A stretch of 64,000 nt of DNA. Origin: Candidatus Zixiibacteriota bacterium. Its GTDB lineage: Bacteria; Zixibacteria; MSB-5A5; GN15; FEB-12. The notes below the pieces were generated by a model. That model made no database searches and was not told the DNA's origin. It saw only the letters and a list, made by a program, of their open reading frames with translations. The translations under genes were made by a program, and so were the position numbers. Numbering within the stretch: the first letter of the stretch is position 1; every line of letters starts with the position of its first letter. This document shows positions 19,326 to 46,317 of the stretch, piece after piece. The stretch spans positions 511 to 64,510 of the forward strand of contig JBGSIV010000139.1 of NCBI GenBank assembly GCA_041742355.1. Reading direction: 5' to 3'.

Positions 19326-19328
19326 AGC

Positions 19329-21275: not shown

Positions 21276-21278
21276 GGC

Positions 21279-23258: not shown

Positions 23259-23261
23259 CGG

Positions 23262-25187: not shown

Positions 25188-25203
25188 CCAGCAACTATAG
25201 TGG

Positions 25204-26937
25204 TCATCTCAAGTTATTTCTAAGTAGTGCCACTCTCCCGGTGGACAAGCTGTAAGAGCCAATCACCGCGAGGTCCACATCTCCATCGCCGTCATAGTCC
25301 AGCCGCGCCATTTTCACAGGTCGACTGGGAACAGGAAAATAGACTGGAGTCGGCGGCATTCCGGCTTCCGAAAACAGGAATATGGCGACAGATTGCTCCG
25401 TTAGCGTCGCCAGATCCTCGAACCCGTTCTCGTCGAAGTCGCTACTCTCAATGATTGTTGCACCGGGGTAGCCGGCAACACTCCGGCATGATTGGCTCAA
25501 TTGACCCTGACCGTTGCTGACAAGAATTGCCAGGGTGCCGGAAGAGCAACTCACCGCCAGATCCGCTTGCCCTGTGGCAGAGTTGACCTTAACGCATAGA
25601 TCAGTCGGGGGTTCGCCGCATGGACTGTAGTAGGTGGGAGCAGCGAATTGGGCAGGTCCCGAACTCAAGATGACCGCAATAGAAGATGCGGAGATACATG
25701 CGAAATCATCGTACGCATCGCCGTTCAGGCGACATTTGACAACTCGGTCGCCGATATCAGGAACAGCAAGCGATGCGACAGTATCGAGCGTCCATTGTCC
25801 ATCCAATCCCCATCGACTCTTCCAGAACACCATCCTGTACTCACAGCCAGCAACGAGATCAGTCTTTCCGTCATTATTCAGGTCAGACATTACTACAGCT
25901 GAGGCATATCCTTGAGAGCTCCTGGACCAGTCAGGGCCAGCCCTCTGGATGAACCCACCTCCCCCATTATTTAGGTGCAAACGAAATGTATGAGTCAAGA
26001 CCACAGCGGCTGCGATGTCTATCTTCCCGTCATTGTTGATGTCACCTACCGCTGTTGGCGCTATCCCGGACATACCAGTGCATTCAGCTCCCAAGATATT
26101 CCAATTCCAGTAGGTACCGTCGGTTGGGGATCCAACGATGATCTCGTCATCGCCATCACCATCGAGGTCCGCGCAGAAAACTTCCACCTTGAGGTACGGG
26201 TCTTGGTACAGCTGTTCGTAGCCGTACAAGTCTCTCACGCCTGAGGTCACCGGCACGACGATTGCAGTGTCGGCCCCGACGAAGACTAGTTCCGCACTCA
26301 GGGCATCCGATCCAATCTCAGTTGTATTCATATCCACCGCTACCGACATGCTGTTTCCCACACCCGAATCCGGGTGGACGTTCAGCCAGGAGCCGTTGAC
26401 CACAGACACCTGCCACGTCAGTGTCCCTCCTCCAAGGTTTTTCACCAGAAGCGTCTCTGGGGAAGGCAACAGCCCACCACGGAATGCCTCGAAGTGCAGC
26501 GAGTCAGGCTGAACCGACAGCCGAGGTTCCCCTATCCCCAGATTAGTTACAACCGAACTGCGAACACTCTCCTTGTTGGCTCCTCCCAGAGCCGTTACCG
26601 CATAGTAGTAGGTGTTCCCCGGTTCAGCGGTTTGATCCAAGTAGCCATGATCAGTCCCGGGTAGAGTCACTAAAGGAGTCAAGTTCGTCTCAAGTACTCC
26701 CCGGTATAGCCGGTAGCCGGTGACTCCCGGGTTGCCGATGGATTGCCACTCCAGTAACCAGCCAGCACTTTGCGGCATGATTGTCAGCTTAAATGGATCC
26801 TCAGACACAACATTGGACGGATCCAAAGGGTTATCGGGATCAACGGGACAACCAAGTATACCAAGCGCGAGAGCCAGCCCCGCAATAGAAACACCCCACA
26901 GTGCGATCGTCCCTATCACAGCGCGAAGAAATCCCAT
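25204..26937 (-). CDS. Lipoprotein with an Fn3-like domain, an Ig-like domain and FG-GAP/VCBS-type (integrin-alpha-like) repeats
   Basis: It begins with ILGC-PVDPDNPLDP. The repeats include DLDGDGDDEIIVG, DINNDGKIDIAAA, DLNNDGKTDLVAG and DYDGDGDVDLAVIG. Confidence 0.7.
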   Translation of the reverse strand: MGFLRAVIGTIALWGVSIAGLALALGILGCPVDPDNPLDPSNVVSEDPFKLTIMPQSAGWLLEWQSIGNPGVTGYRLYRGVLETNLTPLVTLPGTDHGYLDQTAEPGNTYYYAVTALGGANKESVRSSVVTNLGIGEPRLSVQPDSLHFEAFRGGLLPSPETLLVKNLGGGTLTWQVSVVNGSWLNVHPDSGVGNSMSVAVDMNTTEIGSDALSAELVFVGADTAIVVPVTSGVRDLYGYEQLYQDPYLKVEVFCADLDGDGDDEIIVGSPTDGTYWNWNILGAECTGMSGIAPTAVGDINNDGKIDIAAAVVLTHTFRLHLNNGGGGFIQRAGPDWSRSSQGYASAVVMSDLNNDGKTDLVAGCEYRMVFWKSRWGLDGQWTLDTVASLAVPDIGDRVVKCRLNGDAYDDFACISASSIAVILSSGPAQFAAPTYYSPCGEPPTDLCVKVNSATGQADLAVSCSSGTLAILVSNGQGQLSQSCRSVAGYPGATIIESSDFDENGFEDLATLTEQSVAIFLFSEAGMPPTPVYFPVPSRPVKMARLDYDGDGDVDLAVIGSYSLSTGRVALLRNNLR

Positions 26938-27817: not shown

Positions 27818-30208
27818 CTATTTTATCAACATAGTAACCTGCCTGTAATCCCTCAGCTCACCGTTCAAGTCAAGCTCGACCTTATTGCCCTGAAATGATA
27901 TCCGCCGGTCGGGCCCATATGGGAAGAGTATGATTGAATCCACATCAGAAGACGCACTCGGCGTATCGGGCCTAAGGAACTCCAAATGCCAAGTTCCTCT
28001 GCACAGGTTAAGGACAATATTGGGACCCGGAGGCGCCATAGGACGGGGAAAACCATTCGCTTTGAGCTTCAGCGACTTAAGTCCGTTGCCTCCTATCTGG
28101 ACTCTTACCTCTTCGCACCCTTTATATATTTCTTCCAGACTTACAGGCAACGGATCGTTGCTCTCGACATCATAGCGAAAGGAGTAAATAGGAAAATTCG
28201 GATTCTCAATCCGTATCTCATGTTGCCCTTGGGAAACACTGACCTCGGTACCAACATCCCAATACTTGTCATCGATAGACAGGCGCGAACTTTCTTTCGG
28301 CGTAATCTCCACCATAAAGGTGAACATCGGCAAGATGGACACGGGGGAGAGCCGCTGGCTCTCGGCGGTTGGGTCAGGGATTGCTGGAACCAAGGAAGAT
28401 GTTGTGCAGGACAACAGTCCTGAGGGAGATGATTCGAATTGTCCAAGGTACGACTTGATTCCAAACGTGTATCCCGTATTCGGTCTTAATTCCCCCACCG
28501 TGTAAGAGCTTCTGCTGACATCGACCGTGTCGACGCGGCAGACGGTCCCGGCGCAACTACCCGTGATGATAACCCCAGACTCTCCGTTCTGCTTGAACTC
28601 CCAGGCCAACGTGATGCTCGACGGAGTCGACGATATTGCCGTCAGAGACGTCGGGGTTGTAAGTTCTTCCGTTTTCGCATTGCCCTGGCCGGGTTCCGAT
28701 ACCCACCGTCCTGATACGGCCTGAATTGAATAGCGGTATTCAGTGCCAGGTGCCAATCCGGTATCTTGAAAAACGGTGGTATTGCCGGGAAGCGAGGCGG
28801 TCCGGTGAGAATCATCGGAACGCCGAGTTAGTAAGTACTTGTCGACGTGCAGGCTTGCTTCCGAGAGTGGGGAATCTGACCAATCAACAAAGATATCGGT
28901 GTGCGAGGGACTAAGTGTGACCTGGGGCGCCGGGGGTGCGAACAGAGGGTTAAGCAGCCGCATGGTGTAATCCGAGAACAGCACGCTTGTACCTAGTCCA
29001 AGCGCAATCACGGCCAGGAAACCGATCATGACTCGAATGGCCGCCTTGGGTACACCCCTTAATGCTCTCCTCCACCAAGGTGTTCGTATTTTGAAGAGTC
29101 TTCCATCCCTTGACCGCATGTATAGTACAGGTGTACCCCATTCAAGAAGAAGATCTTGTTCCTGGGCTAAGGCCTTTCGAGCGTGCACTGTGGCGAGATC
29201 GACCGGTTCACCTTTGGCGATCCTACCGTAGAACTTCTGAGTCAGCAAGCCAGCAGCCGACACTGAAATGGCATTGTTCATTCCAAGTACTGCCGGTATA
29301 CCTTGAGCTACCAGAGCTTGGGCCACAGAAATCGCAGTCGAACCCGCCATTGCCCCTTTACAGGCCGCGAGAAAAACGAACTTCACCGTGGGATGATCGC
29401 CTACTGTGCGTGCAAACCTGTTCGCCGTTACAGCGACCGAACGATGGAGAGAGTCCTCGAGGCAAAGGTAGGTTTCCCCTACCCGTTGGTCTATATCCCC
29501 GTGGCCGACAAAATGAACTACGTGGTACTCTCGTTCACCAAGTTTCTCTTCGAGCGATTCAATCGATGGGTGGTCAAGCCAATCGATTGCAACCTGCCGT
29601 CTTTCGATGTGCGGTTCCAGCGCACCGGCAATAGCTCTCCACTCGGCCCTTGCATCAATCGGAGCAAGATCGTCGGGGTGCGCCGTCACGACCAGCACAT
29701 TCAGAGCCTTCTTGACCGCCACGGCGACAATTGGGAATGGAGACGGAAGAAACCGAACGAACGGGGTCCGAGGCGAGAGGGCCAGATGGCCGAAGATTCG
29801 ATGATGCAGGAACTCCCAAGGCAACTGCTCGAACTCTCCTGCGTTATCGAATGATATGTACAAACGTACAAAAGTGCCACCCTTGCGAGCATCATCACTC
29901 GCTTGTAAGAACTTCGCGAGACTGTAGTCATCTGCAAGGAGTGAGTGCAGTAACCGTTCACCGATCCGCTCAGGAGAGAGTGTCTCACCAACAACCGAGC
30001 TTTCTTCTAGTGAGGTCGTTGCACTCAGGACTCTGGTGGCCGATACCCTGCGGCTAGTTTCAAATGCACGCGACTCCTCTGCAGACAACGGTGGATTAAA
30101 CGGATGTTCTGTTTGGCCATACTCCGAGTCCGTAGATACGACAAAACCATCGATCGACCTTCTCAAGGTTATCTTGAACGGAATGTATTTCTCTTCCCGC
30201 CCTGCCAT
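27818..30208 (-). CDS. CHAT-domain (caspase-like) protein with one transmembrane helix, two Fn3 domains and a C-terminal beta-rich domain
   Basis: 796 aa. YHVVHFVGHGD (catalytic His context) and VKFVFLAACKGAMAG (catalytic Cys context) mark the CHAT domain. The transmembrane helix is AIRVMIGFLAVIALGLGTSVLF. The Fn3-like segments are VTLSPSHTDIFVDWS...TEYRYSIQAV and LTAISSTPSSITLAWEF...NTGYTFGIKSY. Confidence 0.8.
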   Translation of the reverse strand: MAGREEKYIPFKITLRRSIDGFVVSTDSEYGQTEHPFNPPLSAEESRAFETSRRVSATRVLSATTSLEESSVVGETLSPERIGERLLHSLLADDYSLAKFLQASDDARKGGTFVRLYISFDNAGEFEQLPWEFLHHRIFGHLALSPRTPFVRFLPSPFPIVAVAVKKALNVLVVTAHPDDLAPIDARAEWRAIAGALEPHIERRQVAIDWLDHPSIESLEEKLGEREYHVVHFVGHGDIDQRVGETYLCLEDSLHRSVAVTANRFARTVGDHPTVKFVFLAACKGAMAGSTAISVAQALVAQGIPAVLGMNNAISVSAAGLLTQKFYGRIAKGEPVDLATVHARKALAQEQDLLLEWGTPVLYMRSRDGRLFKIRTPWWRRALRGVPKAAIRVMIGFLAVIALGLGTSVLFSDYTMRLLNPLFAPPAPQVTLSPSHTDIFVDWSDSPLSEASLHVDKYLLTRRSDDSHRTASLPGNTTVFQDTGLAPGTEYRYSIQAVSGRWVSEPGQGNAKTEELTTPTSLTAISSTPSSITLAWEFKQNGESGVIITGSCAGTVCRVDTVDVSRSSYTVGELRPNTGYTFGIKSYLGQFESSPSGLLSCTTSSLVPAIPDPTAESQRLSPVSILPMFTFMVEITPKESSRLSIDDKYWDVGTEVSVSQGQHEIRIENPNFPIYSFRYDVESNDPLPVSLEEIYKGCEEVRVQIGGNGLKSLKLKANGFPRPMAPPGPNIVLNLCRGTWHLEFLRPDTPSASSDVDSIILFPYGPDRRISFQGNKVELDLNGELRDYRQVTMLIK

Positions 30209-31193
30209 ACCCGTGATTCCTGTGCCTATGATCAGTCGAACGATCTTCGCAGCAAATAGCCTTGCCTCTGGCTATCCAGCTCCGTAGCATCGCGCTAGTC
30301 GCATGTGACTAAGATATCCGTTGAAATGAAGTTGTCAATAGCTACTCTAATATGGCGTTACTTCCCGCGACATGGGGCTGAAAGGCAGAGAAGTAGCTGG
30401 AAGACGTGCGTCTCGGCACTAACATAGGGGCACAGACGAGCCGCCCGTCTGAGTCTAAAAAAGTAGCATCTACCCGTTTGCCAAGGGAGAACATCGCTCC
30501 GCCGCTTGCGAAGGCACTTCCGGTTCCCAAGCGAAATCCTACCTGGTCTCGATTGCCGCGGCCCTCCGCCGCTCACCGGCCTGTTTACGGCAGCCATAGT
30601 CTGCCCTTTTGCCTCGGTTGCTCTGTCGCGGGCGCCGGCTGGCCTGTAGCCTTCACCTGAACTCGGGGACATCGGCTATAGGCTAGCAGTGTTTCAAGGA
30701 GCTTGTCGTCAGCAGCCCCAAGTAGCTGAGCTTCCGCATGCATATCTGACTCCGGCGAGGTTCTTACAGCAGCTTCTGAAGTGCGGCTGCAGGACCCCTC
30801 CCTCTGGGGTTAAACTTCGGGTGAGACACCATCCTCAGCCATGATCCTGAAAGATCAGAAATCATTCTTCTCACAAAGTGATGGAAACCTGTGAAAATTC
30901 GGCGGCTCGCTGCCATATGGAGTATGAAGGCCTTCGGTAAGCCGATTACACTGGTGTTTCAGCTAAACCGCACGCCGCTATGGCTAATCGCCAATGCTAA
31001 CAGCAGACAAACCAATACAACTGCGAAATTGAATAACAGGACGCGCTTCGCAATCTCTTGCTGCTTGAAAGGAGGCCAGAAGTTGAACTCTCACCGGCCG
31101 GGCACCGGTCTGATCCCAAAGAGAGCAGTCCGGTACGGCGCGGCGTCCAGAATTTGATAAGTCCTTCAACCAAAACATTCTGAAAGGCATTGT

Positions 31194-32528
31194 ATGAAAA
31201 CCGTTGCTCTTGAACTGTTCTTGGCCGGCCTGATCTCCCTCTTCCTGCTGGCCTCAGGCTCATCCATCTCCGCTCAGCCGACCACCTTGGTCAGCAACTC
31301 GGATGGCAATCGCTTTTTCAATCACAAACCGTATCTCCCCGATCCGGTCCCGGAGAATATCCCTGACCCCTGCGAGCCGGACGTCCTTGACGACTGGTAT
31401 CCCTGGGACACTATCTTTGATCCCTTCATCGGGGACCCGTCAGGCATTCTGGTTGACTCGGTGATTTACCTGGACAGCATCATCGGCGATCCCATCCTAT
31501 TCAACCACCCTGATGATTTCTATGACGAAATCCCTGAGGAGGGTGGCTACCCGGAGAGCAGCTCCCCGGACGACTGGCAGGTCGGAGACCAGCGCGGTGA
31601 CCTCTACTGGCAGACCGATGCTTCTACCAGCCTCCAGCTGGTCAGCTGCACGATGGATGAAGAGTACGGTGATCTGTACTCTGATGACCCCTGTCGGTGG
31701 GACGATTACCCCTACTGGGACGACGATCACTGGAGTGATTGCTACTGTTTAGAGGACTACGATTGCAGCATGGATGTGGACACTGTGCTGGTGAGCCTCG
31801 AGAGAGATCTCAGGGCAACCTTTGCTGACCTCATCAAGGCGTACCTTGATCAGGAGGTAGCGGACGAGCTGCCCGGCATCGAGAACTCCGGGGAACACGA
31901 TCGACTATTCACGCTCATGAACTCCTACATGAGCCTCTTCGAGACAGCGTCTTTCGCGTGGGATGAACCCTACTACGAGCCGTCCTATGAACCGTGCTGG
32001 GATGAACCCTATTGGCAGTCTATGGAGGACTACTCAGTGCCCAATGATACGGACTACTACTACTATCAGTCCGACGGCAATTCGGCCGTACGGTTCGAGA
32101 ATCCGGCTGGACAATCCCGTGCTGTAGATTTGATCGCTTGGCTCGGATCGGCAGGCAAGTCAGGGCAACTTGCCACAGCCAGTACCTGTGGATTTGCAGA
32201 CGCGAGTGCCGAACTCGCGTCTGCGGGTGGCGGTTCTCTCGGTCTCCTTGGGATCGGTGAAGGAAGCTCCTGCACCAGGAAATGCAATGTCTTCCTTCAA
32301 TATGCCTCGGCGTATCCGTATGGCATCGGGATTGAGGTAGATGGCATGCGGTACGATCTATTCCAAGGCGATTACGTCAGCGTTCCCATACCGTCACAGG
32401 TTTCCTCCGTGAAGATCTGGAATTGCCCCGATGCCGGCTGCCGTTGGTCTCGCTTCCGTGTGACAGACGGTGAAACTTACTATATCCGGGACGGGCGCGT
32501 GCCTGGATCCCTGATCCTCACGCGGTAA
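31194..32528 (+). CDS. Secreted, highly acidic, aromatic-rich protein
   Basis: The signal peptide is MKTVALELFLAGLISLFLLASGSSISAQP. D/E/W/Y/P-rich stretches include DDWYPWDTIFDPF and RWDDYPYWDDDHWSDCYC. It shares the motif [19 protein letters not shown] with the next gene. Confidence 0.65.
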   Translation: MKTVALELFLAGLISLFLLASGSSISAQPTTLVSNSDGNRFFNHKPYLPDPVPENIPDPCEPDVLDDWYPWDTIFDPFIGDPSGILVDSVIYLDSIIGDPILFNHPDDFYDEIPEEGGYPESSSPDDWQVGDQRGDLYWQTDASTSLQLVSCTMDEEYGDLYSDDPCRWDDYPYWDDDHWSDCYCLEDYDCSMDVDTVLVSLERDLRATFADLIKAYLDQEVADELPGIENSGEHDRLFTLMNSYMSLFETASFAWDEPYYEPSYEPCWDEPYWQSMEDYSVPNDTDYYYYQSDGNSAVRFENPAGQSRAVDLIAWLGSAGKSGQLATASTCGFADASAELASAGGGSLGLLGIGEGSSCTRKCNVFLQYASAYPYGIGIEVDGMRYDLFQGDYVSVPIPSQVSSVKIWNCPDAGCRWSRFRVTDGETYYIRDGRVPGSLILTR

Positions 32529-32619
32529 GGAAGCCATGCGGCGGCCCGACGTCAAGTCAGTTCAGACAATCGAAGCACGAAACAGACAACGTGAACCAAA
32601 TCTGAGAAGGAGAACAAAA

Positions 32620-34074
32620 ATGCTACAAGTAATGAAAAGAGTTCTGGTGCCGCTGATCTTGACCGCGACGGTCTTGTTGGCCCCAGGCCTGAGCATGGCT
32701 CAGTGGTATTCGGCGGAAAGCGATCTGACATTCCCGCTGGAACTCGATGTCACTATCAACGGTACGGTGAATCACTTCACGATTGACGATTATGAAAGCC
32801 TTGTGAACTTCCGGTCTAATCTGGAACTGATCTCACGTGCTCAGGCGGAAGATTATGGCACGAGGATGACGCGGATCGAAGCGGAGCGTCAGAAAGCGAT
32901 GGAGCGATTCCGGCAACTGGGCGCGGAAATCCAAGAGGTGTCTGACCAGTACATTGATGACACCAGGAATACGGTCATAGGCCAGTATGGTGGAACGGTA
33001 GCTTACGCAGCGAAGGCGGCCTCCGATGCCATCTTGGCGACCGTGGGCGCGTTGGGTATCGGAAAACCGATCGAGGCTGGTACCAAGGCTATTGAATCGG
33101 CGATAACGCTGTCATATGATTTCGCCAATCTCGGGATCGATCTGTCTCAAGGTAATGTCGACGCTTTGGGTGTGGGCAGCACTGCCGCTGACCTTGGAGC
33201 TGCGCTTACCGACGGTCCTCTTGGAACTGGTCTTGAGGTTGCTGGTTCTGGTCTTGGATTTGTGAGTGCTGCCGTTGAGTGTCGCCAGGCAATCGACACT
33301 TGGAAGGAGATGAGCCAGAACCAGAGCCTTATTGACGGCAACTATACTTCCGAGGTCGACCGCCTCCTTGAAAGACAGCAAGCCGTCCTTGGCGAACTTG
33401 CTGCTCTAAAGGTTGAGAAGATGGCGTTGGAAAGCGGCCTGGATGAGTCGATAGATTATGTACTCGAAGACCTCGACTCCCAGTTTCCTGAGGTTGCCGA
33501 TCAAGTTCAGGCCGAGTGGAGTGGCGTCTCTCCAGACGACGTCCTAAATGACGTAGTAGATGACCCTGCCTCCACGTACGAGCCGTCCGATGAACCGTAC
33601 TGGGACGAGCCCTACTACGAGCCGTCCGATGAACCGTACTGGGATGAACCCTACTACGAGCCGTCCGATGAGCCGTACTGGGACGAGCCCTACTACGAGC
33701 CGTCCGATGAGCCGTACTGGGACGAGCCCTACTACGAGCCGTCCGATGAACCGTACTGGGACGATGGCGGCTGGGACGATGGCGGCTACGACGATGGCGG
33801 CTGGGACGATGGCGGCTGGGACGATGGCGGCTGGGACGATGGCGGCTGGGACGATGGCGGCTGGGACGATGGCGGCTACGACGATGGCGGCTGGGACGAT
33901 GGCGGCTACGACGATGGCGGCTGGGACGATGGCGGCTACGACGATGGCGGCTACGACGATGGCGGCTGGGACGATGGCGGCTACGACGATGGCGGCTGGG
34001 ACGATGGTGGCTACGACGATGGCGGCTACGACGATGGTGGGTGGGACGATGGTGGTGAACCTGTTGATGACTGA
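32620..34074 (+). CDS. Secreted protein with a coiled coil, a Gly/Ala-rich amphipathic segment and a C-terminal ([13 protein letters not shown])n-([W/Y]DDGG)20 repeat tail
   Basis: I chose the ATG at 32620 (AAGGAG lies 7 nt upstream; the signal peptide is [28 protein letters not shown]) over the track start at 32536. The repeats were read directly from the sequence. Confidence 0.7.
33577..33756 (+). repeat. Coding tandem repeat, 39 bp x 4.6 (TACGAGCCGTCCGATGAACCGTACTGGGACGAGCCCTAC)
   Basis: Units start at 33577, 33616, 33655, 33694 and 33733. Only synonymous or near-synonymous differences separate them (gaa/gag, gac/gat, gag/gaa). Confidence 0.9.
33757..34056 (+). repeat. Coding tandem repeat, 15 bp x 20 (TGG or TAC followed by GACGATGGCGGC)
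   Basis: There are 20 consecutive units that differ essentially only in codon 1 (tgg versus tac). The order is W W Y W W W W W Y W Y W Y Y W Y W Y Y W. The last units use ggt variants. Confidence 0.9.
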
Positions 34075-34104
34075 TATTGACCCGCGAGACATGGTGCACT
34101 GCGC

Positions 34105-34138
34105 ATGGGCCCGGCAACTGCCAATCTGCCGGGCCCAT
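34105..34138 (+). terminator. Hairpin terminator candidate between convergent genes
   Basis: A perfect 12-bp stem, ATGGGCCCGGCA / TGCCGGGCCCAT, encloses a 10-nt loop. Only TTT follows it. Confidence 0.45.
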
Positions 34139-34502
34139 TTGGTGGTGGATTCGTTTACCGGGGGGCTACCATCTCAAATTCGCCGCTGGTCAGGAATCCG
34201 ATTCAAACCGATCATGTTTCGTCCCCATCAAAATCTGTCCACGGTAGGGAGACTTATTCATAGCTCCTTGGAAGTGCTCAGTCATATCCATTTGCCCACA
34301 GCATAAAGCTCGCACGGACTGCTCCCGTCTATCGTGGAATTGCTACTTCGCGAGGAGGAGCTGTAGATGGGCAGGGGCGTCTGCTATTTCGTGTCGTCCA
34401 TCTGGTTTGCAGCCAATCCAACTGCATCGCGGCAAACATCAGGAGCGATGCACTATTTGGTGAACCCTCCACGAGCTCTGCTGCTGGTCAATCCAGCACC
34501 TC

Positions 34503-35021
34503 TCACTGTTCCAGAAAGTCCTTGTACTCGTCAACAAGGGATTGGGGAACGATGCACTGGTGCATTGTGTCCCCGCGCCCATTGTCGGGAATGATGATGG
34601 CAACCTTGGCGCGCTTCTGCCGCTGTCCATCTTCGATCTGGCGTCTCAACTGAAGCAACGCCAGCCGCAGGCGCTCCAATTTCACAGAATCCCGGAAAGA
34701 GACCTTTATTCGTCCCTCAGCGATGCTTCTTGCCAGCTGCCGAAGTTGTGCGTCCAGCACCTTTCTCGTCCTGGCGGCCTGCTCTGCCCTGACCTTCTCG
34801 GCGGCTGTTCTGTACTTCTGCGCTTCCCACTCTTGCCATAGCTGCACCCGCCGTTTCCAGCCGAATCGCTTGGCCCAATTCTTGACGGTGCTCTTTGAGA
34901 CATTCAGTGCCGAGGCTACAGCCGCGTAGCTTCGCTGTGGTCCCAGTTTCATGTAGAGCCTGAAGGCCTGCTTGTGGTACAGCCGCTCCGCTCCATTGGC
35001 TGCACGTCCCGGCTTGTTCAT
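34503..35021 (-). CDS. HTH DNA-binding protein resembling phage terminase small subunits or mobile-element regulators
   Basis: 172 aa. RSYAAVASALNVSKSTVKNWAKRFGWKRR is the HTH and a coiled coil follows. It is a paralog of the upstream gene, with a 4-nt overlap. Confidence 0.45.
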   Translation of the reverse strand: MNKPGRAANGAERLYHKQAFRLYMKLGPQRSYAAVASALNVSKSTVKNWAKRFGWKRRVQLWQEWEAQKYRTAAEKVRAEQAARTRKVLDAQLRQLARSIAEGRIKVSFRDSVKLERLRLALLQLRRQIEDGQRQKRAKVAIIIPDNGRGDTMHQCIVPQSLVDEYKDFLEQ

Positions 35022-35512
35022 AAAGGACCTCCACCTTCGCCTGAATTGGGTTCTGATTCTCCATTGTCATTGCTGTCGGGCCGGACCACGATGACCTGTC
35101 CATAGGGTTGAGCGTCAGCTGTCGTCATGTCGGGCAGGACCACCCCATCCAGGGCGAGGCGGGCTTCAATGAGGGTGATGAGTTCGCTGGTCTTCGGGGC
35201 GGCATTCCCCTCTGTCAGGTTCTTCATCGCCACTACCTGAGCCGCCTCGACCATTCGCGTGTACTGGTTAATCTGATCCAGGTCACCCTCAAAACCCGAT
35301 TCCAGCAGTGACTGCATCTTGGCGGCATCCCACTCTTCGGCGCGCTCTTTCCAGTGGAAGGCTCGGGACCAGTTCTTGATTGTGCTCAGCGACACTTTGA
35401 GCTGCTTAGCAACCTTGGCGCACGATCGCTTGCGACCCAGGCCGCAGTAGATTTCAAACGCCAATTGCTGTGTCGGCGTCTCGAACGAGTACCTCTTGCG
35501 GTTATTAGTCAC
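35018..35512 (-). CDS. HTH DNA-binding protein, paralog of 34503..35021
   Basis: 164 aa. RSCAKVAKQLKVSLSTIKNWSRAFHWKERAEEWD is the HTH. Its start overlaps the methyltransferase stop by 8 nt. Confidence 0.45.
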   Translation of the reverse strand: MTNNRKRYSFETPTQQLAFEIYCGLGRKRSCAKVAKQLKVSLSTIKNWSRAFHWKERAEEWDAAKMQSLLESGFEGDLDQINQYTRMVEAAQVVAMKNLTEGNAAPKTSELITLIEARLALDGVVLPDMTTADAQPYGQVIVVRPDSNDNGESEPNSGEGGGPL

Positions 35513-36866
35513 GGTTCACCTCCAGTGCGGTCGCGGTTTCCGGCCGCTGCAATTTGGCCGTCTGGCCGGTGTACTTCTCCCACCGGGAAACGATCACATC
35601 GCAGTATTTCGGTTCAATTTCCATGGCCAGACAGCGGCGCCCCAACTGTTGGCAGGCGATGAGCGTGCTGCCGGAACCTGCAAAGGGGTCAAGGACATTC
35701 TCTCCCCGGATGGTCGAGTTGCGCAGGGCCCGTGAGATCAGGGCAACGGGCTTCTGGGTCGGATGCTGGTAGCCGCCTTCCCGCTCGATCTGCCACACGG
35801 TCGTCTGGGTCCGGTCTTTGACGCGCCGGTGCTTCTCACCGATCCAGCCGTAGAGCAGGCACTCGTGCTGTTCCCGGTAGTCCCCCCAGCCCATTGAGGC
35901 CGACTGCTTGATCCAGACAATGGTCGAGGAGAGCTGGAAACCGGCTGCCAGAAACGCCCGCTCAAAAGCGATCCGGATACCGGCCATACTGATGCCATGG
36001 CAGACGTAGGCGGTCGCACCCGGCCGGCAGACGGCCGCGGTGTTGGTCATGACCGTCCGGAGAAGTGTCTCCAGTGCGTCTGAATCGAGATTGTCATTGC
36101 GGATGTCTCCCCACTGGCCCTTTTTTTTGCCGCGACTGTGGTAGTCCACGCCGTACGGCGGGTCGGTAATCAGGCAGTCGACCTGATGCTCACCTACAAG
36201 CGCCTCGATATCCTCTCGTCGAGTAGCATCACCGCACAGCAGGCGGTGTTCGCCCAAAAGCCACAGATCACCCGGCTGGGTAGTTGCCACCTCGGGGAGG
36301 GGAGGGGCGGAGTCGGCCTTCTCGTCCTCATCCTGGTAGGGCCAGTCCAGGAGCTTCGTCAGCTCGGTGTCGCCAAACCCCAGCGAGGAGAGATCAAAGT
36401 CGGCATCGGCGTTGAGCTCACTTACGAGCCTGCTGAGCAGGTCGTTGTCCCAGGCAGCAATCTCACCAGTCCGGTTGTCGGCGATGGAGAACCCGGTAAA
36501 CTTCGAGCCGACCAGTCCAGGGACCCGAATGACCGGTACTGTAGCCAGGCCAAGGAGCCGGGCTGCTTTGAGGCGGGTATGGCCGGCGGCGATGTTGAGC
36601 TCGCTGTCAGTAATGATAGGATTGTTGAACCCATACGCCTGAATTGAGCGGGCGACGGCCTCGACCGCGTCATCGTTCTTACGGGGGTTGTTGGGATTGG
36701 GCTTGAGCTGGGTAATCGGTACCCGTTCAACGGCAAGCGGTGTGGCACACAGGGCCGATGCCGTCTCGCCACTCTGGATTGGTTTCGTCTCGGCTGGATT
36801 TCCAGCCTGGCGGTCGCTTTGGTCGCTGCGGGCGGATCTCTTGGCACCAGTTGATGTGCAGCGCAT
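35505..36866 (-). CDS. ParB-like nuclease domain fused to a DNA methyltransferase (N6A/N4C class, DPPY motif)
   Basis: VPITQLKPNPNNPRKN...AGHTRLKAARLLG is the ParB N-terminal domain. CLITDPPYGV is catalytic motif IV. VLDPFAGSGSTLIACQQLGRR is the SAM-binding motif I. The start at 36866 (MRCTSTG) has AAGGAG 8 nt upstream. Confidence 0.8.
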   Translation of the reverse strand: MRCTSTGAKRSARSDQSDRQAGNPAETKPIQSGETASALCATPLAVERVPITQLKPNPNNPRKNDDAVEAVARSIQAYGFNNPIITDSELNIAAGHTRLKAARLLGLATVPVIRVPGLVGSKFTGFSIADNRTGEIAAWDNDLLSRLVSELNADADFDLSSLGFGDTELTKLLDWPYQDEDEKADSAPPLPEVATTQPGDLWLLGEHRLLCGDATRREDIEALVGEHQVDCLITDPPYGVDYHSRGKKKGQWGDIRNDNLDSDALETLLRTVMTNTAAVCRPGATAYVCHGISMAGIRIAFERAFLAAGFQLSSTIVWIKQSASMGWGDYREQHECLLYGWIGEKHRRVKDRTQTTVWQIEREGGYQHPTQKPVALISRALRNSTIRGENVLDPFAGSGSTLIACQQLGRRCLAMEIEPKYCDVIVSRWEKYTGQTAKLQRPETATALEVNRD

Positions 36867-37006
36867 GAAGATTACTCCTTCGCACCATGTTGGTGCGGCT
36901 GGACACTCGGTGTCCAGTTTCCGGGTTGAGACCGAAGTACGGGGAACGCCCGCTGCTCCGGCGGAGATCAATCTGTCCAAGCGCAGGTACGGAGACCGTC
37001 CGTCGC

Positions 37007-37810
37007 CTATAGCTTGTATATATCAGTGGTTCGAATCGTTACTATGCCTCCGTTTTTGGTGGTGGCGGTCACCTCGCGGAAATCTCCCGCCTGCATCCGC
37101 TTGGCTGCTTCATCTGGAGCAAATTTGCCCTGCTCCCGACTGGTGGCTTTCACCGTCTTAATCGTGTCCTTGGACTTGACTACTTCTATACGCTCATACC
37201 GCGGGTCAGCCACGATCGAAAGCAGCTTCTGCTCCTTGGCCGTCGGCTGTTTGAGCTGAAGCGTTCGCTGTGCAGCCACTTCGGCCAGGGACAGGGTCAG
37301 CACCCTCCGGACGTAGTTGTGCAGCGGACAGCAGACAACGGGCCCGCGGCTTTCGTCGGGCTGCACTTTGTCAAGAAGGCTGTCAGCCGTCAGGGGAATG
37401 ACCATCCGTCCCGTGCGATCGATCACGAGCGTGTAGCATCCTCCCCGAACGGAGCTGATGACAAACATGTCGAGAAAGGACATACCGGGAGGGAATGCGG
37501 CCAGCTGGGCCAGCACGTACCGGATAATGTCCACGGGGAATCCGATCTGGCGCAGGTCGCTGATTATGAGCAGTTGGAGGACTTCAAAGAAGGAGAACTT
37601 CCGCCAACCGGTTTCCTCTGTGTCGCGGTGCGGGGTGATCAGGTGCAGGCTATCCCAGGTGTTCACCTTTCGGTAGGTGATCGACGAATCGAGCTCGCGG
37701 AGCGCCTGAATTGGATACCGGGGCTCAAGCAGCTCTCGGTGGAGCGCCTTGCCGTCGTGCACGGATGGCATCCAGTTGCGCCACGGTTCTTGTTTACTCT
37801 GTCCGGTCAT
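37007..37810 (-). CDS. Hypothetical protein with a MerR-like HTH N-terminus
   Basis: 267 aa. ITYRKVNTWDSLHLITPHRDTEETGWRKFSFFEVLQLLIISDLRQIG resembles a MerR-type winged helix. It is the first gene of the minus-strand block. Confidence 0.4.
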   Translation of the reverse strand: MTGQSKQEPWRNWMPSVHDGKALHRELLEPRYPIQALRELDSSITYRKVNTWDSLHLITPHRDTEETGWRKFSFFEVLQLLIISDLRQIGFPVDIIRYVLAQLAAFPPGMSFLDMFVISSVRGGCYTLVIDRTGRMVIPLTADSLLDKVQPDESRGPVVCCPLHNYVRRVLTLSLAEVAAQRTLQLKQPTAKEQKLLSIVADPRYERIEVVKSKDTIKTVKATSREQGKFAPDEAAKRMQAGDFREVTATTKNGGIVTIRTTDIYKL

Positions 37811-38149: not shown

Positions 38150-39481
38150 ATGTCCACGAAGACCACTCAGGCCCCACCGACCCCAGCTTGGAAGAGCCTG
38201 GCCGATTTGCAAAAGCTCTCCCTGCCCGACCAGCGCACGTTGTCCGACGGCTATCCTGAGGGGGATTCCAAGCGACTGTACAAGGCAATACTGGAACAGA
38301 AGCGGAAAGATAACGACGATCCCGATCCGTATCTTTTCGAAGTCGTCGATGGCCAGCAGCGCATCCGCACCATGTTGGAGTTCATGGGGGTTAAACCGCC
38401 GAATGCGCACTGCTACCGGGGGGCTTGGCTCGAACCGTTTAACTCACAGCAAGATTCACCAATTGCTAAAGGGAAACGGTATGATCAACTCAATGTCGAT
38501 CAGAAGATCAGGTTCGATGAGAAACCGCTTACGATCATGATCCTGGAGAACGCCAATATCCAAGAGGTCCGCGACATGTTCCTGCGGCTTCAGAACGGCA
38601 CACCGCTGAATGCACAACAGAAGCGCGATGCGACGGGTTCGCAGATCGGGCGAGCGGCACGCCTCATCGCTGATCTCCCGTTCTTCAAGATATCGGCTGG
38701 TTTCGATGATGCAGGATCAGCCCACCACTCGGTGGCGTCGCAGATGCTTCACCTTGAGATCAAGGAGAGGATTGTCAGCTGCACCTCTCGCCAGCTGGAC
38801 AAGCTCTATGACCATTACAAGTCTACGCCTGTGGACCCGCCGGTGATTGCGAGGACCAAAAAGGTGGTGGAGATCCTCGGGAGAGTCTTCCCCGGTCAGA
38901 ACCCGCATTTGAACCAAAACTACGCACTCAGTCTGTATTGGCTGATTTCCAGGATTCTGCTGACCTACACCATTCCGGAGACCGAATATTCGAAGATCAG
39001 GGACAATTTCGAGCGGATGGATGTCGCTCGAATCGAATCACGGAATGCGGGTTATCCCGGGCCAGATGGCGAAATGTTCGAAGACCTGAGTCTGGCGATG
39101 TCACGCGGGAATACTGGGATTGACGGTATCTCAACTCGACATGATATCGTAGGCCGTTACCTCTTCCAGGGGATCGGCTTGGTGCCACGTCCCGAACTGG
39201 ACCCGACGCGGGACTTCACCCATGAAGAAAAACTGGTCCTGTACTACAGGGCTCGCGGGTGCTGTCAGCTGGAACATGGGCAAAGCGTTTGCGGTCGGCC
39301 GATTGAATTTGACGATGCGGTTGTGGATCATATCATTCCCCACAGCAAACAGGGAAGAACTGAACTGGCCAATGGGCGAATCGCCTTCAAGCTCTGTAAC
39401 ATCGCCAGAGGGAACAGAGACGATTTCGACCCGAAGGCGCAGTGCCACCTGTCGACTGCCTCGGTCGCGAAAGCGGAATAA
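38150..39481 (+). CDS. DUF262 (ParB-like NTPase) plus C-terminal HNH nuclease; GmrSD/BrxU-like type IV restriction candidate
   Basis: 443 aa. FEVVDGQQRIRTMLEF carries the DGQQR motif, FLRLQNGTPLNAQQKRDA is present, and the C-terminus is AVVDHIIPHSKQGRTELANGRIAFKLCNIARGNR (HNH). Confidence 0.7.
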   Translation: MSTKTTQAPPTPAWKSLADLQKLSLPDQRTLSDGYPEGDSKRLYKAILEQKRKDNDDPDPYLFEVVDGQQRIRTMLEFMGVKPPNAHCYRGAWLEPFNSQQDSPIAKGKRYDQLNVDQKIRFDEKPLTIMILENANIQEVRDMFLRLQNGTPLNAQQKRDATGSQIGRAARLIADLPFFKISAGFDDAGSAHHSVASQMLHLEIKERIVSCTSRQLDKLYDHYKSTPVDPPVIARTKKVVEILGRVFPGQNPHLNQNYALSLYWLISRILLTYTIPETEYSKIRDNFERMDVARIESRNAGYPGPDGEMFEDLSLAMSRGNTGIDGISTRHDIVGRYLFQGIGLVPRPELDPTRDFTHEEKLVLYYRARGCCQLEHGQSVCGRPIEFDDAVVDHIIPHSKQGRTELANGRIAFKLCNIARGNRDDFDPKAQCHLSTASVAKAE

Positions 39482-40265
39482 CATGATGTTGCCGACTTGT
39501 GCAATCAATGGAGTGGTGAAGTTATTCCTGATCCTCACCGTTGGCTCACCATTGCTTATGGAACCCGTCGTTCACCTCAGTTCAAATTGAGAACGAAGAC
39601 GTTCTGAAATCACCCGACTGATTGTCGATAAGAGAGTCGATTAGATTTAAGTCCCTGGAGATTCGACAGTGAATGCCAACACCTTGGTAATGGCGGTCCA
39701 ATCACTATACCATGCTGCGCCAACCGAGATGCCCATTTCGAACAAACAAGAGAAATTCGGCGCAATGCATTTAAGACCCTTCCTATTTGGGAGTTCGATA
39801 TAGTCGCTGACGTTCCTTTCACTGTTTCTGAAGAAACGGAGAGGAACTGACACTCAGCAGTGCGACACAAGTTGGTGTTGGTTCTCCTCCGGCACAACAC
39901 AGGGACTTAACGCTGGTCGTCTGCCGCGGGTTATGGGTTCTGCGGGACTACGGGACCATCAAGAACCACTCTCATTGGAGTTTCGCAGACCTTCGGTGGA
40001 AACGGTTAGAGTCTGCATTGTGAGACAATTGCCTTGCCTCTGCAAGACCGGGGGAGTATATTGGCTGAGAGAGCCAGTCGCCGTTTTGTCGCTGGCTGTG
40101 CGTAGGGTTAGAAGCACTTGTGAAAAGAATCCGGAAATCAGGCCACGCGGTGCTTCGGTGTGCCGATTCCTGTTTCTTTTGGCGATGTGTCATTGGTGAG
40201 ATATAACGTCTCCTCGGTGTTTCGCACCCGATTCGACAAACGCAGCTACTTCACGTGGGAACTGT

Positions 40266-40988
40266 GTGAAAGACCAGGGGAGAAAGCGATCTCGGTTTCC
40301 GGACACACGTTGGTCGCTCGTAAGGCGAGCGGCCGGCAGTGACGACGGCGAGCGACAAGATGCTCTATCCCAGTTGCTCATAATCTACGCACCGGCACTG
40401 CTCGCCTACCTTATTAGAGGTCGTCGTATCCCGCCGGACTTGGCCGACGACATTCTGAACGATTTCATTCTCGACAAGATTCTGGAGCGAAGGATTATAG
40501 ACCGGGCAGATTCTAGTCGTGGTCGTTTCCGGAGTTTCATCCTCAAATCCCTCAACAACTACGCTACGACTAAGCTGCGCAGGGAGTACGTCCTGCGAGC
40601 GCGATTAGCCGGTTTCAGTGAAGCTGAGTTCGATGTGGCTCCTCCATCGATGGCAGTCGACGCCTTTGAACTGGAGTGGGTGCGACAGGTGGTTCAAGAT
40701 GCACTTGCCATGATGCAGGAGGATTGCATTAAGAGGCACCGTGACGCCGAGTGGAAGCTGTTCTCGCTGCGCGTAGTCGGGCCGCTCATTGAAGATGTTG
40801 AACCGGTGGAGTATCGAGAATTGATTGAGCAGCTCCACCTGGATACTCCACGACAGGCAATCAATCTCCTCGCCACGGCAAAGCGGACGTTCCTGCGGCA
40901 CCTGCAGACGGCCATCAGTCGTTATGCCGAAGATGGGCAGGAAGTCAGCGCGGAAATCGAGGACCTAAGAAGAATTGTTGGACGTTAA
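40266..40988 (+). CDS. Sigma-70 family factor, ECF43-like (Ser/Thr-kinase-associated type)
   Basis: 240 aa with a GTG start. The N-terminal motif is FPDTRWSLVRRA. ADDILNDFILDKI and FRSFILKSLNNYATTKLRRE look like region 2. TPRQAINLLATAKRTFLRHLQTAI looks like region 4. A kinase lies two genes downstream. Confidence 0.65.
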   Translation: MKDQGRKRSRFPDTRWSLVRRAAGSDDGERQDALSQLLIIYAPALLAYLIRGRRIPPDLADDILNDFILDKILERRIIDRADSSRGRFRSFILKSLNNYATTKLRREYVLRARLAGFSEAEFDVAPPSMAVDAFELEWVRQVVQDALAMMQEDCIKRHRDAEWKLFSLRVVGPLIEDVEPVEYRELIEQLHLDTPRQAINLLATAKRTFLRHLQTAISRYAEDGQEVSAEIEDLRRIVGR

Positions 40989-41023
40989 GGCGCAACCGGG
41001 TCTTGCTCATAGAGTAGTATTTA

Positions 41024-42729: not shown

Positions 42730-42983
42730 AGTCACTATTTCATCCGGCCTGCGCAACACAGGTCATTTGACGTGGTAGTATCGGTAAAGAGAAGTCACTC
42801 AGGAAGACAGACTGATGCAAAGAGTGAGAAACAAGGCGGATCGATCGAAGAAAGGGCTTATTGTCTTCCCGGACAGGTCCATCCTTTCTATCGACCAATC
42901 TGCAAAGAGGGCGTCAGTTCGATCCTGCATTAGACGACACGAACTTCTCGGTTGTTGCAGACCTGACTGAATGGAGCTTTTTC

Positions 42984-45026: not shown

Positions 45027-45042
45027 GCCGCTCGTCGAACGA

Positions 45043-46275: not shown

Positions 46276-46317
46276 CGCATCGCCCAGCAATGCTATGCAA
46301 GGAGGATCACTTTCGTC

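What the first reader, a model, noticed from the sequence alone, without database searches (positions are those of the whole stretch)
31194..34074. Pair of secreted, extremely acidic, Trp/Tyr-rich proteins that share a WDEPY(Y/W)EPS motif
Both proteins have clear signal peptides and are dominated by D, E, P, W and Y. The first has one copy of [19 protein letters not shown]. The second has 4.6 exact copies of [13 protein letters not shown] followed by 20 copies of [W/Y]DDGG. I know of no characterised family with these repeats. Alternating acidic and aromatic residues suggest cation or mineral binding, carbohydrate or surface adhesion, or a disordered decoy or bait. The genes sit divergently next to the CHAT/lipoprotein operon and may belong to the same functional unit.
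Basis: partly seen in the sequence, partly recalled or inferred. Interest (0 to 1): 0.65.

Follow-up and report, generated by a model that had tools for sequence, protein, structure and literature searches.

The report
Orphan secreted acidic tandem-repeat protein pair
Two neighbouring genes on a horizontally acquired island encode exported, extremely acidic proteins with tryptophan/tyrosine-rich repeats; they have no relatives among billions of known proteins, so their role (most likely cation or surface binding outside the cell) is still a guess.

Summary
P1 (31194-32528) and P2 (32536-34074, true start probably 32620) are adjacent genes on the same strand. Both have Sec-type signal peptides. 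P2 ends in 4.6 exact copies of [13 protein letters not shown] followed by 20 copies of [W/Y]DDGG: 165 residues, net charge about -66, no Lys or Arg. P1 carries one copy of the WDEPY module, and its 54 nt are 91% identical to a P2 unit, so the motif is shared by descent or gene conversion.

Both proteins are singletons. Pfam, NCBIfam, PHROGs, PADLOC and PDB give nothing convincing. The exception is P1's last ~85 residues. They form a confidently modelled beta-sandwich that belongs to a rare family absent from Pfam. Elsewhere this domain is fused to secreted metallopeptidase-like, BACON and lectin-like modules.

[W/Y]DDGG arrays recur in unrelated proteins, and most of those read in full are extracytoplasmic, so the repeat is a convergent low-complexity type, not a family.

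The pair lies on a ~40-kb low-GC island beside tRNA-Asn, divergent from the CHAT/lipoprotein operon. Linkage to that operon cannot be tested because there are no homologues.

My best guess is a polyanionic, disordered cation- or surface-binding exoprotein pair. That is inferred from composition only. Interest is moderate to low.

The parts
30209..31193 (.). 985-bp divergent intergenic region between the CHAT gene (- strand) and P1 (+ strand)
   Evidence: ORF list. No Rfam family here. No convincing shared ECF-type promoter motif with the sigma-factor or CHAT upstream regions.
31194..32528 (+). P1 gene: 444 aa, exported, acidic (mature net charge about -57), 12 Cys
   Evidence: Singleton cluster. 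The same sequence was recovered at 100% identity in an independent Logan assembly.
31194..31274 (+). P1 Sec-type signal peptide (aa 1-27, predicted cleavage ISA|QP)
   Evidence: Sequence inspection of the output. No lipobox and no further TM-like segment.
31959..32015 (+). P1 copy of the shared acidic/aromatic module [19 protein letters not shown]
   Evidence: 49 of 54 nt identical to the P2 unit at 33601-33654. BLASTP finds similarity between P1 and P2 only here.
32259..32528 (+). P1 C-terminal ~85-residue beta-sandwich domain (W-x-C-P-x2-3-C-x-W motif); member of a rare family with no Pfam match
   Evidence: 16 distant relatives, E 3e-11 to 7e-4, match only this segment. W, C, C and Y are invariant in the alignment. 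AlphaFold2 with the alignment gives pLDDT 92.5 and 8 strands. No Pfam hit in any of the 17 members.
32620..34074 (+). P2 gene: 484 aa from the probable start. The longest ORF starts at 32536, which would give 512 aa.
   Evidence: AAGGAG 7 nt upstream of the ATG at 32620. Database gene call of 484 aa, singleton.
32620..32700 (+). P2 Sec-type signal peptide (27 aa, predicted cleavage SMA|QW)
   Evidence: Sequence inspection. The only TM-like segment in the protein.
32701..33576 (+). P2 N-terminal domain: a beta-hairpin, then two ~60-residue helices bracketing Gly/Ala-rich short helices. No detectable relatives.
   Evidence: AlphaFold2 single-sequence model, pLDDT 55. Foldseek gives only generic coiled-coil hits. 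No homologues found.
33577..33756 (+). 39-nt tandem array: 4 exact [13 protein letters not shown] units plus an 8-residue partial unit
   Evidence: The units differ only at 3 third-codon positions.
33757..34056 (+). 15-nt tandem array: 20 x [W/Y]DDGG (12 W units, 8 Y units)
   Evidence: There are two unit types, TGGGACGATGGCGGC and TACGACGATGGCGGC, with only 5 other codon changes, all synonymous.
34363..34385 (+). Weak terminator-like hairpin downstream of P2. None was found between P1 and P2.
   Evidence: The count of such sites is not above shuffled expectation, so this is only suggestive.

Best explanation
P1 and P2 are a two-gene cargo module, probably co-transcribed, on a ~40-kb horizontally acquired island. 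Both are exported by the Sec pathway and act outside the cytoplasm.

P2 consists of a helical, probably hairpin or coiled-coil, N-terminal domain followed by a 165-residue tail. The tail has no basic residues, carries about -66 charge, and places W or Y every 4-5 residues. It is best read as an intrinsically disordered polyanion with aromatic 'stickers'. Such a tail must bind divalent or trivalent cations, and can stick multivalently to cationic, mineral or glycan surfaces.

P1 is an acidic, disulfide-rich protein. Its C-terminal beta-sandwich is a portable extracytoplasmic binding or targeting module.

The two genes exchanged a 54-nt acidic/aromatic module. The arrays are young, or homogenised by recombination, and stay in frame, so tail length can change quickly by slippage or unequal recombination.

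Shown: gene structure, repeats, charge, the DNA-level relation of the shared motif, orphan status, the fold and family of the P1 domain, and the island context.
Inferred: export, disorder, cation or surface binding, and co-transcription.
For: - Repeats and composition.
- Signal peptides with no lipobox or TM segment. The 12 Cys in P1 fit an oxidising compartment.
- Shared module is 49/54 nt identical.
- P1's C-terminal domain is a confident beta-sandwich (pLDDT 92.5). In relatives it is fused to HExxH peptidase-like, BACON and PA-IL-lectin-like modules, several with signal peptides.
- [W/Y]DDGG arrays recur in unrelated proteins, and most of those read in full are extracytoplasmic: signal-peptide mini-proteins L012 and L035, lipoproteins L013 and L037, and the extracellular tails of FtsQ-like L047 and LCP-like L045. 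WDEPY-type acidic tails occur on extracellular proteins of Firmicutes, L006 and L007. This points to a generic extracellular role for such tails.
- No terminator was found between P1 and P2.
- GC3 of both genes matches the island and not the flanks.
Against: - No experimental or comparative evidence for any ligand.
- None of the Ca-binding repeat or loop models in Pfam (which include RTX/HemolysinCabind, EF-hand, dockerin, TSP3 and FG-GAP) matches the tail.
- With no orthologues, neither purifying selection nor conserved linkage can be shown.
- The arrays are so homogeneous that they could be a recent slippage product with no selected function.
- The signal peptides were judged by eye.
- The organism and its envelope type are unknown, so 'secreted' could mean periplasmic.
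- The P2 N-domain model is low confidence.
Confidence: 0.35

Rival explanations
1. The acidic/aromatic modules are multivalent short linear motifs, and the neighbouring surface machinery recognises them. That machinery is the CHAT-TM-fn3 sensor/protease, the FG-GAP lipoprotein and the four BACON/beta-propeller lipoproteins. On this reading P1 and P2 are ligands, baits or substrates of the same functional unit.
For: - Divergent arrangement, with all partners predicted to be extracytoplasmic or membrane-spanning.
- The same island and a similar GC3.
- Both proteins carry the same 18-residue module, as expected for a shared docking motif.
- P1's domain is fused to BACON domains in other organisms, and the neighbouring lipoproteins here carry BACON domains.
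Against: - Co-occurrence cannot be tested because there are no homologues.
- No shared promoter motif.
- The spacer is 985 bp.
- The CHAT domain itself lies on the cytoplasmic side of the TM segment, so direct cleavage of exported proteins is unlikely.
Confidence: 0.15
2. The pair has no specific selected function. They are lineage-restricted ORFans on a mobile island, and their tails are recent products of replication slippage.
For: - Singleton clusters among ~15 billion proteins.
- The arrays are nearly identical at the DNA level.
- Similar arrays arise repeatedly in unrelated genes.
Against: - Both keep intact signal peptides, long non-repeat domains and normal codon-position GC.
- P1 retains a conserved folded domain with all invariant residues.
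- All differences among the 39-nt units are synonymous, and the arrays stay in frame.
Confidence: 0.2
3. P2 is an alpha-helical membrane-active toxin, either ClyA/Ahl-like or glycine-zipper-like. Its acidic tail would be a solubilising pro-region or a receptor-binding region, and P1 would be a targeting or accessory partner.
For: - Predicted long helical hairpin with a Gly/Ala-rich amphipathic tip.
- ClyA pore and AhlB appear among the Foldseek hits.
- Location on a mobile island.
Against: - Those hits are non-significant (E 0.16 to 1.3, TM about 0.2) and sit among generic coiled coils. The model has pLDDT 55.
- No profile or PDB sequence match.
- No hydrophobic stretch reaches TM-like hydropathy apart from the signal peptide.
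- No immunity gene is evident.
Confidence: 0.08
4. The pair is island-encoded surface remodelling: a polyanionic coat or decoy that masks receptors or traps phages or cationic antimicrobials. This would benefit the mobile element's host.
For: - Position between a surface-protein operon and phage-like or defence-like genes: terS-like, ParB-methyltransferase, GmrSD/HNH and a Ser/Thr kinase.
- Strongly anionic exported proteins.
Against: - No convincing PADLOC or PHROG match to P1 or P2; only a weak, filter-level LeoBC hit for P2.
- No anchor to retain the proteins at the surface.
- No relatives in phage or plasmid collections.
Confidence: 0.1

Closest known systems
RTX / beta-roll Ca2+-binding repeat exoproteins (review PMC3034196)
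   Same: Secreted bacterial proteins with long arrays of short Gly- and Asp-rich repeats. The charge of those repeats is neutralised by Ca2+ outside the cell.
   Different: RTX repeats are nonapeptides (GGxGxDxUx) exported by type I secretion through a C-terminal signal. Here the period is 5 (or 13), the hydrophobic position is W/Y flanked by G and D, there is an N-terminal Sec signal, and Pfam gives no hit.
Ehrlichia acidic tandem-repeat proteins TRP32/47/120 (PMC3417381)
   Same: Strongly acidic secreted proteins dominated by near-identical tandem repeats. They are lineage-specific and their length varies.
   Different: TRPs are type I secretion substrates of an obligate intracellular pathogen with host targets. 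P1 and P2 have Sec signal peptides and W/Y-Asp-Gly or Glu-Pro chemistry. No sequence similarity was detected in any search, and the biology of the source organism is unknown.
Glu-Pro rod-like spacers (TonB EP/KP region, trypanosome procyclin EP repeats); from general knowledge, not tested here
   Same: The [13 protein letters not shown] array has an E/D-P dipeptide every 4-5 residues. That pattern would favour an extended, protease-resistant polyanionic rod.
   Different: Those are strict dipeptide repeats without aromatics. Nothing here shows a spanning or coat function.
C-terminal beta-sandwich accessory domains of secreted peptidases (PPC domain) and T9SS C-terminal sorting domains
   Same: P1's ~85-residue all-beta domain sits at the extreme C-terminus in most family members, many of which are HExxH peptidase-like proteins.
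   Different: No Pfam or NCBIfam match, which includes the PPC and Por_Secre_tail models. The domain is N-terminal in P0012 and P0015, and tandem in P0008. It has its own invariant W-C...C-W/Y signature.
Acidic/aromatic transactivation-domain grammar of eukaryotes (PMC11546935)
   Same: The same sequence rule applies: W/Y/F interspersed with D/E and G, and no K/R.
   Different: This is purely a compositional analogy. P2 is a Sec-exported bacterial protein and nothing links it to a eukaryotic nucleus.

Membership tests
RTX / HemolysinCabind beta-roll | Nonapeptide GGxGxDxUx repeats detectable with Pfam PF00353 | tested here: not met
   The tail (33571-34074) gave 0 Pfam families even at E<=10. 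Repeat periods are 15 nt and 39 nt, i.e. 5 and 13 aa.
RTX / HemolysinCabind beta-roll | C-terminal type I secretion signal and no N-terminal signal peptide | tested here: not met
   P2 has an N-terminal Sec-type signal peptide and ends in ...[10 protein letters not shown].
Pentapeptide-repeat proteins (PF00805, A[D/N]LXX) | Profile match, and a register in which the central hydrophobic residue is preceded by D/N | tested here: not met
   No Pfam hit. In G-G-[W/Y]-D-D the aromatic residue is preceded by Gly and followed by Asp.
EF-hand / dockerin / TSP3 / FG-GAP Ca2+ loops | DxDxDG-type loop detectable by the corresponding Pfam models | tested here: not met
   No Pfam hit for P1, P2 or the isolated tail.
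ClyA/Hbl/Nhe/Ahl/Xax alpha-pore-forming toxins | Sequence or profile similarity to a family member | tested here: not met
   No Pfam family with E<=0.01 for P2; the only hit at E<=10 for its N-domain is unrelated (Clathrin_lg_ch, E 0.14). phmmer against PDB gave no hit with E<1.
ClyA/Hbl/Nhe/Ahl/Xax alpha-pore-forming toxins | Elongated helical bundle with a hydrophobic head, shown by structural similarity | tested here: inconclusive
   The model has pLDDT 55. ClyA pore scores E 0.16 with TM 0.21, and AhlB scores E 1.3, both among generic coiled coils.
T9SS C-terminal domain / PPC pre-peptidase C-terminal domain (for the P1 C-terminus) | Match to the Por_Secre_tail/TIGR04183 or PF04151 models, and a strictly C-terminal position | tested here: not met
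   No Pfam or NCBIfam hit for P1, and no Pfam hit for any of the 17 domain sequences. The domain is N-terminal in P0012 and P0015 and duplicated in P0008.
Undescribed 'W-x-C-P...C-x-W' beta-sandwich domain family (defined here) | Invariant W, C, C and Y; the Y-P-x-G-I...G-x-R-Y motif; significant HMMER match | tested here: met
   E 3e-11 to 7e-4 against 16 proteins, over P1 aa ~364-443 only. Invariant columns W54, C56, C61, Y74. Model pLDDT 92.5.
Multi-core RiPP precursor (repeated core peptides) | Adjacent maturation enzymes (radical SAM, YcaO, lanthipeptide synthetase, P450, BURP-like cyclase) and a leader peptide rather than a Sec signal | tested here: not met
   Domain scans of the neighbouring island genes tested (21 genes between 15.4 and 54.4 kb) found none of these enzymes. 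Both proteins have Sec-type signal peptides.
Ehrlichia-type acidic tandem-repeat effectors | Type I secretion and interaction with host cell targets | not testable with these tools
   No sequence model is available and the organism and lifestyle are unknown. The Sec signal peptides argue against the same export route.

The most novel reading that the evidence does not exclude
The 20x [W/Y]DDGG array, possibly together with the WDEPY array, is a new kind of metal-responsive repeat. On binding Ca2+, lanthanides or Fe3+ it would fold or condense into an ordered aromatic-stacked solenoid or a coacervate. That would make P1/P2 a previously unknown bacterial system for extracellular metal capture, mineral nucleation or matrix building. 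The sporadic [10 protein letters not shown] tails on unrelated envelope proteins would then be independent recruitments of the same physical principle.
Probability: 0.1. Interest if true: 0.65.

Novelty: new variant of a known kind. Interest (0 to 1): 0.3.

Why it matters
If the tail really is a high-capacity cation- or surface-binding module, it would be a compact, genetically simple, aromatic-rich polyanion. That would interest people working on biomineralisation, metal recovery and disordered-protein design. It would also explain why similar pentapeptide arrays keep appearing on bacterial envelope proteins.

The more solid gain is small: a rare, confidently folded beta-sandwich domain with no Pfam match, which accompanies secreted peptidase-like and BACON proteins.

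As it stands the pair is one organism's orphan genes, with no conservation to build on, so general significance is limited.

Tried and rejected
1. Homology for whole P1, whole P2 and the P2 N-domain. The word-index search of 5.8 billion clusters found only the query itself. A full HMMER scan of 1.84 billion representatives with P1 found only the C-terminal domain. tblastn of the P2 N-domain and the P1 C-domain against phages and plasmids found nothing.
2. Pfam, PHROGs, PADLOC, NCBIfam and PDB sequence searches gave nothing convincing. The PADLOC LeoBC hit (E 8e-4, no stretch passing) was dismissed as coiled-coil noise.
3. Foldseek of the P2 N-domain model gave only generic coiled coils. Foldseek of the P1 domain against PDB and BFVD gave generic Ig-like sandwiches (PepT2 ectodomain, cholesterol-dependent cytolysin domain 4, DUF4352), with best E about 2e-3.
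4. The domain profile against PDB gave weak summed hits to designed 'Pizza' NHL propellers. I judged this a local P-x-G-I..V..G..Y motif resemblance, not homology.
5. The WDEPY...WDEPY DNA pattern in 185,579 genomes and in viral contigs gave 8 genome loci. None is homologous, and four are non-coding repeats in Salinicoccus/Lacicoccus. The source genome is not among the species representatives.
6. The single viral hit to the WDDGG pattern was in the wrong reading frame.
7. Genomic context of relatives of the P1 domain: the contigs were too short to be informative.
8. The pentapeptide-repeat, RTX, RiPP-precursor and Tat-signal readings were rejected on register and context.
9. A search for a shared ECF promoter found nothing convincing.
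10. Literature searches for the motifs and the run accession found nothing relevant.
Full report
**Observation**

The window has two adjacent + strand ORFs at the stated coordinates: P1 (31194-32528, 444 aa) and P2 (32536-34074, 512 aa).

- P1 contains [19 protein letters not shown] at aa 256-274.
- P2 contains four exact [13 protein letters not shown] units plus an 8-residue partial unit, then exactly 20 [W/Y]DDGG units, and ends in EPVDD.
- Tandem Repeats Finder reports a 39-nt array (4.8 copies, 95% matches, score 348) and a 15-nt array (19.8 copies, 90% matches, score 461).
- Both proteins begin with Sec-type signal peptides, which I judged by eye. There is no lipobox and no other TM-like segment.
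- P2 most likely starts at M29 (nt 32620). An AAGGAG sequence lies 7 nt upstream, and the public gene call is 484 aa.
Net charge is about -57 for mature P1, -99 for mature P2, and -66 over the 165-residue tail, which has no Lys or Arg.
- Codon-position GC looks like normal coding sequence and matches the neighbouring island genes.
- The long ORFs in other frames and on the other strand across 33329-34306 are the expected by-product of the repeats.

**How the two genes are related**

BLASTP finds similarity only in the 18-19-residue module. At the DNA level, P1 31959-32012 matches P2 33601-33654 at 49 of 54 nt, with the same codons. The motif is therefore shared by duplication or gene conversion, not by convergence.

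Within P2, the four 39-nt units differ only at three third-codon positions. The twenty 15-nt units are of two types, TGGGACGATGGCGGC and TACGACGATGGCGGC, with five further synonymous changes. The arrays are therefore young or continually homogenised. Because both unit lengths are multiples of three, array length can change without breaking the reading frame.

**Homology**

- Neither protein matches Pfam, PHROGs or NCBIfam; PADLOC gives only one weak LeoBC hit for P2 (E 8e-4, no stretch passing), and the PDB sequence search gives only one hit each, at E 1.4 and 3.2. This includes relaxed Pfam thresholds on the isolated tail, the P2 N-domain and the P1 C-terminus.
- The word-index search of 5.8 billion clusters returned only the query for P1, P2 and the P2 N-domain.
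- All the island proteins I checked are singleton clusters.
- An independent Logan assembly (SRR28170473) reproduces window 29623-33166 at 100% identity, so the sequence is not an assembly artefact.
It found 16 proteins with E from 3e-11 to 7e-4, and all of them align only to P1 aa ~364-443.
- The orphan status of the P2 N-domain is less thoroughly established, because it was not given a full HMMER scan.

**The P1 C-terminal domain**

The relatives share Y-x-S-x-Y-P-x-G-I..E-V-x-G-x-R-Y ... I-W-E-C-P-x-x-G-C-R-W ... Y-x-I-x-D, with W, C, C and Y invariant.

- With this alignment, AlphaFold2 gives an eight-stranded beta-sandwich at pLDDT 92.5.
- Foldseek finds only generic Ig-like sandwiches: the PepT2 ectodomain, cholesterol-dependent cytolysin domain 4, transthyretin and DUF4352. 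The best E is about 2e-3.
- None of the 17 domain sequences hits Pfam.
- In the relatives the domain follows HExxH peptidase-like regions (faint M48, M10 or SprT matches) or BACON domains. In one case it precedes a PA-IL-lectin-like region, and once it is duplicated in tandem.
- Several of these proteins have signal peptides or lipoboxes.

I read this as a portable extracytoplasmic binding or targeting module with no Pfam match. It is not a sorting signal, because it can also be N-terminal. It occurs only once in this window.

**The P2 N-domain**

The single-sequence AlphaFold2 model is poor (pLDDT 55). It predicts a beta-hairpin followed by two ~60-residue helices that flank Gly/Ala-rich short helices. 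Foldseek hits are non-significant generic coiled coils. ClyA pore (E 0.16) and AhlB (E 1.3) are among them. This is a lead for a membrane-active protein, not evidence.

**Are the repeats unique?**

No. A degenerate DNA pattern for three consecutive [W/Y]DDGG units found 38 metagenome loci. In-frame translation shows:

- small signal-peptide proteins made almost only of WDDGG (L012), or of W/G/H repeats plus WDDGG (L035);
- lipoprotein linkers (L013/L024, L037);
- extracellular tails of an FtsQ-like protein (L047) and an LCP-like protein (L045);
- a marine family with a basic N-terminal region, GYDDGG repeats and a C-terminal TM helix (L031, L044 and others).

A pattern for two WDEPY motifs found eight loci in 185,579 species genomes. 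None is homologous, but two (L006, L007) are acidic/aromatic regions or tails of extracellular Firmicute proteins.

Acidic/aromatic short-period arrays are therefore a recurrent, convergent feature, and most of the proteins I read in full are envelope or exported proteins. The source genome is not among the species representatives.

**Context**

- GC falls from 0.63-0.65 to 0.51-0.59 between about 14 kb and 54.6 kb. GC3 is 0.55-0.77 inside this stretch and 0.81-0.82 outside it.
- tRNA-Asn lies at 54608-54681 on the - strand.
- A 14-bp direct repeat, ATAAAAAAGCTCCG, overlaps the tRNA 3' end (54600) and recurs at 14330. This suggests a ~40-kb integrated island. I found no integrase, and a 14-mer match is only moderately unlikely by chance.
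- To the left of P1 and P2, on the - strand, lie a CHAT-TM-fn3 protein, a small membrane protein, an FG-GAP lipoprotein and four paralogous BACON/beta-propeller lipoproteins. An ECF sigma/anti-sigma pair lies beyond them.
- To the right lie two terS-like HTH paralogues, a ParB-methyltransferase and a MerR-like protein. Further right are a GmrSD/HNH protein, a Ser/Thr kinase, an Hsp70-like protein, a TPR protein and a CFI-box-CTERM protein.
- P1 and P2 are divergent from the CHAT gene across 985 bp. No Rfam element and no shared promoter motif was found there.

**Interpretation**

The secure conclusions are these. The two genes are real and their products are exported. They are strongly anionic and specific to this lineage, and they sit on an acquired island. 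P2's tail is made of young arrays that can vary in length. P1 carries a folded binding-type domain from a rare family.

Function is inferred. A 165-residue tail with -66 charge, no basic residues, regularly spaced W/Y and abundant Gly and Pro should be disordered, and it must bind multivalent cations. The aromatic residues add affinity for surfaces or glycans. The recurrence of such tails on envelope proteins fits a generic extracellular physicochemical role. I give this reading 0.35.

The rivals are:

- bait or ligand for the neighbouring CHAT/propeller unit (0.15);
- no selected function (0.20);
- helical toxin (0.08);
- island-encoded surface decoy (0.10).

Membership of the RTX, pentapeptide-repeat, EF-hand/dockerin/TSP3, T9SS-CTD/PPC, ClyA-type and RiPP-precursor families was tested. 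It was not met in every case except the ClyA structural comparison, which was inconclusive.

**Verdict**

The novelty is a new variant of the loose class of secreted acidic tandem-repeat proteins, plus a small domain family with no Pfam match. Interest is 0.3.

Noticed in passing
window 14330-14343 and 54600-54613; island about 14.3-54.6 kb: A 14-bp direct repeat, ATAAAAAAGCTCCG, overlaps the 3' end of tRNA-Asn (54608-54681, - strand) and recurs exactly where GC drops from ~0.63 to ~0.51. These are candidate att sites of a ~40-kb integrated island. No integrase was recognised.
   Followed up: partly
window 32259-32528 and proteins P0003-P0018: A rare ~85-residue beta-sandwich domain with no Pfam match and invariant W, C, C and Y. 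It is found fused to HExxH peptidase-like, BACON and PA-IL-like modules. Only 17 representatives (including P1 itself) have E<1e-3 among 1.84 billion proteins.
   Followed up: yes
window 17355-26937 (- strand): Four paralogous BACON + beta-propeller lipoproteins and one FG-GAP lipoprotein all carry the same C-P-G-E-R-D-N-P-L-D-P stretch directly after the lipobox cysteine. They lie downstream of a CHAT-TM-fn3 protein (HetF-like CHAT) and opposite an ECF sigma/anti-sigma pair at 15461-16655.
   Followed up: partly
window 34503-37810 (- strand): Two tandem paralogous terminase-small-subunit-like HTH proteins (phrog_6299), a ParB-N6/N4 DNA methyltransferase fusion and a MerR-like protein. This is a phage or satellite-like module with no structural genes nearby.
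   Followed up: no
window 38150-53401 (+ strand): A run of conflict-system-like genes: GmrSD_N + HNH, a second ECF-like sigma, a PD-T4-6/mad6-like Ser/Thr kinase, an 829-aa Hsp70-like protein followed by a TPR protein, a CFI-box-CTERM domain protein (E 1.7e-21), and several large proteins with no matches.
   Followed up: no
L010, L015, L019, L023, L025, L026, L028, L031, L036, L038, L039, L040, L044, L046: A marine metagenome protein family of ~450-590 aa. It has a highly basic Arg/Lys-rich N-terminal region, a variable-length GYDDGG array, and a basic C-terminal region ending in a TM helix. PHROGs matched neither the protein nor most of its neighbours on L044.
   Followed up: partly
L012 9421-9684; L035 721-1134: Small signal-peptide proteins composed almost entirely of WDDGG repeats (L012, cut by the contig end, beside a LuxR-type regulator), or of W/G/H repeats followed by WDDGG x4 (L035).
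   Followed up: partly
L003, L005, L008, L009 (Salinicoccus sp. YB14-2, Lacicoccus qingdaonensis): Multi-copy short elements that match the WDEPY DNA pattern but are interrupted by stop codons (pseudo-translation AVQWLTDRPGAWDEPY...). They are probably dispersed non-coding repeats and are unrelated to the finding.
   Followed up: no
window 10452-13637 (- strand): A flanking 1061-aa protein with a Laminin_G_3 domain, Cys-rich repeats and a C-terminal dockerin-like region. It lies in the high-GC host part of the window.
   Followed up: no
window 33329-34306, other frames and - strand: Long ORFs (269, 182 and 248 aa) encoding His/Arg/Ser/Pro-rich or Ala/Ile/Val-rich or Thr/Met/Ala-rich repeats overlap the P2 tail. 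They are frame artefacts of the tandem arrays, not genes.
   Followed up: yes
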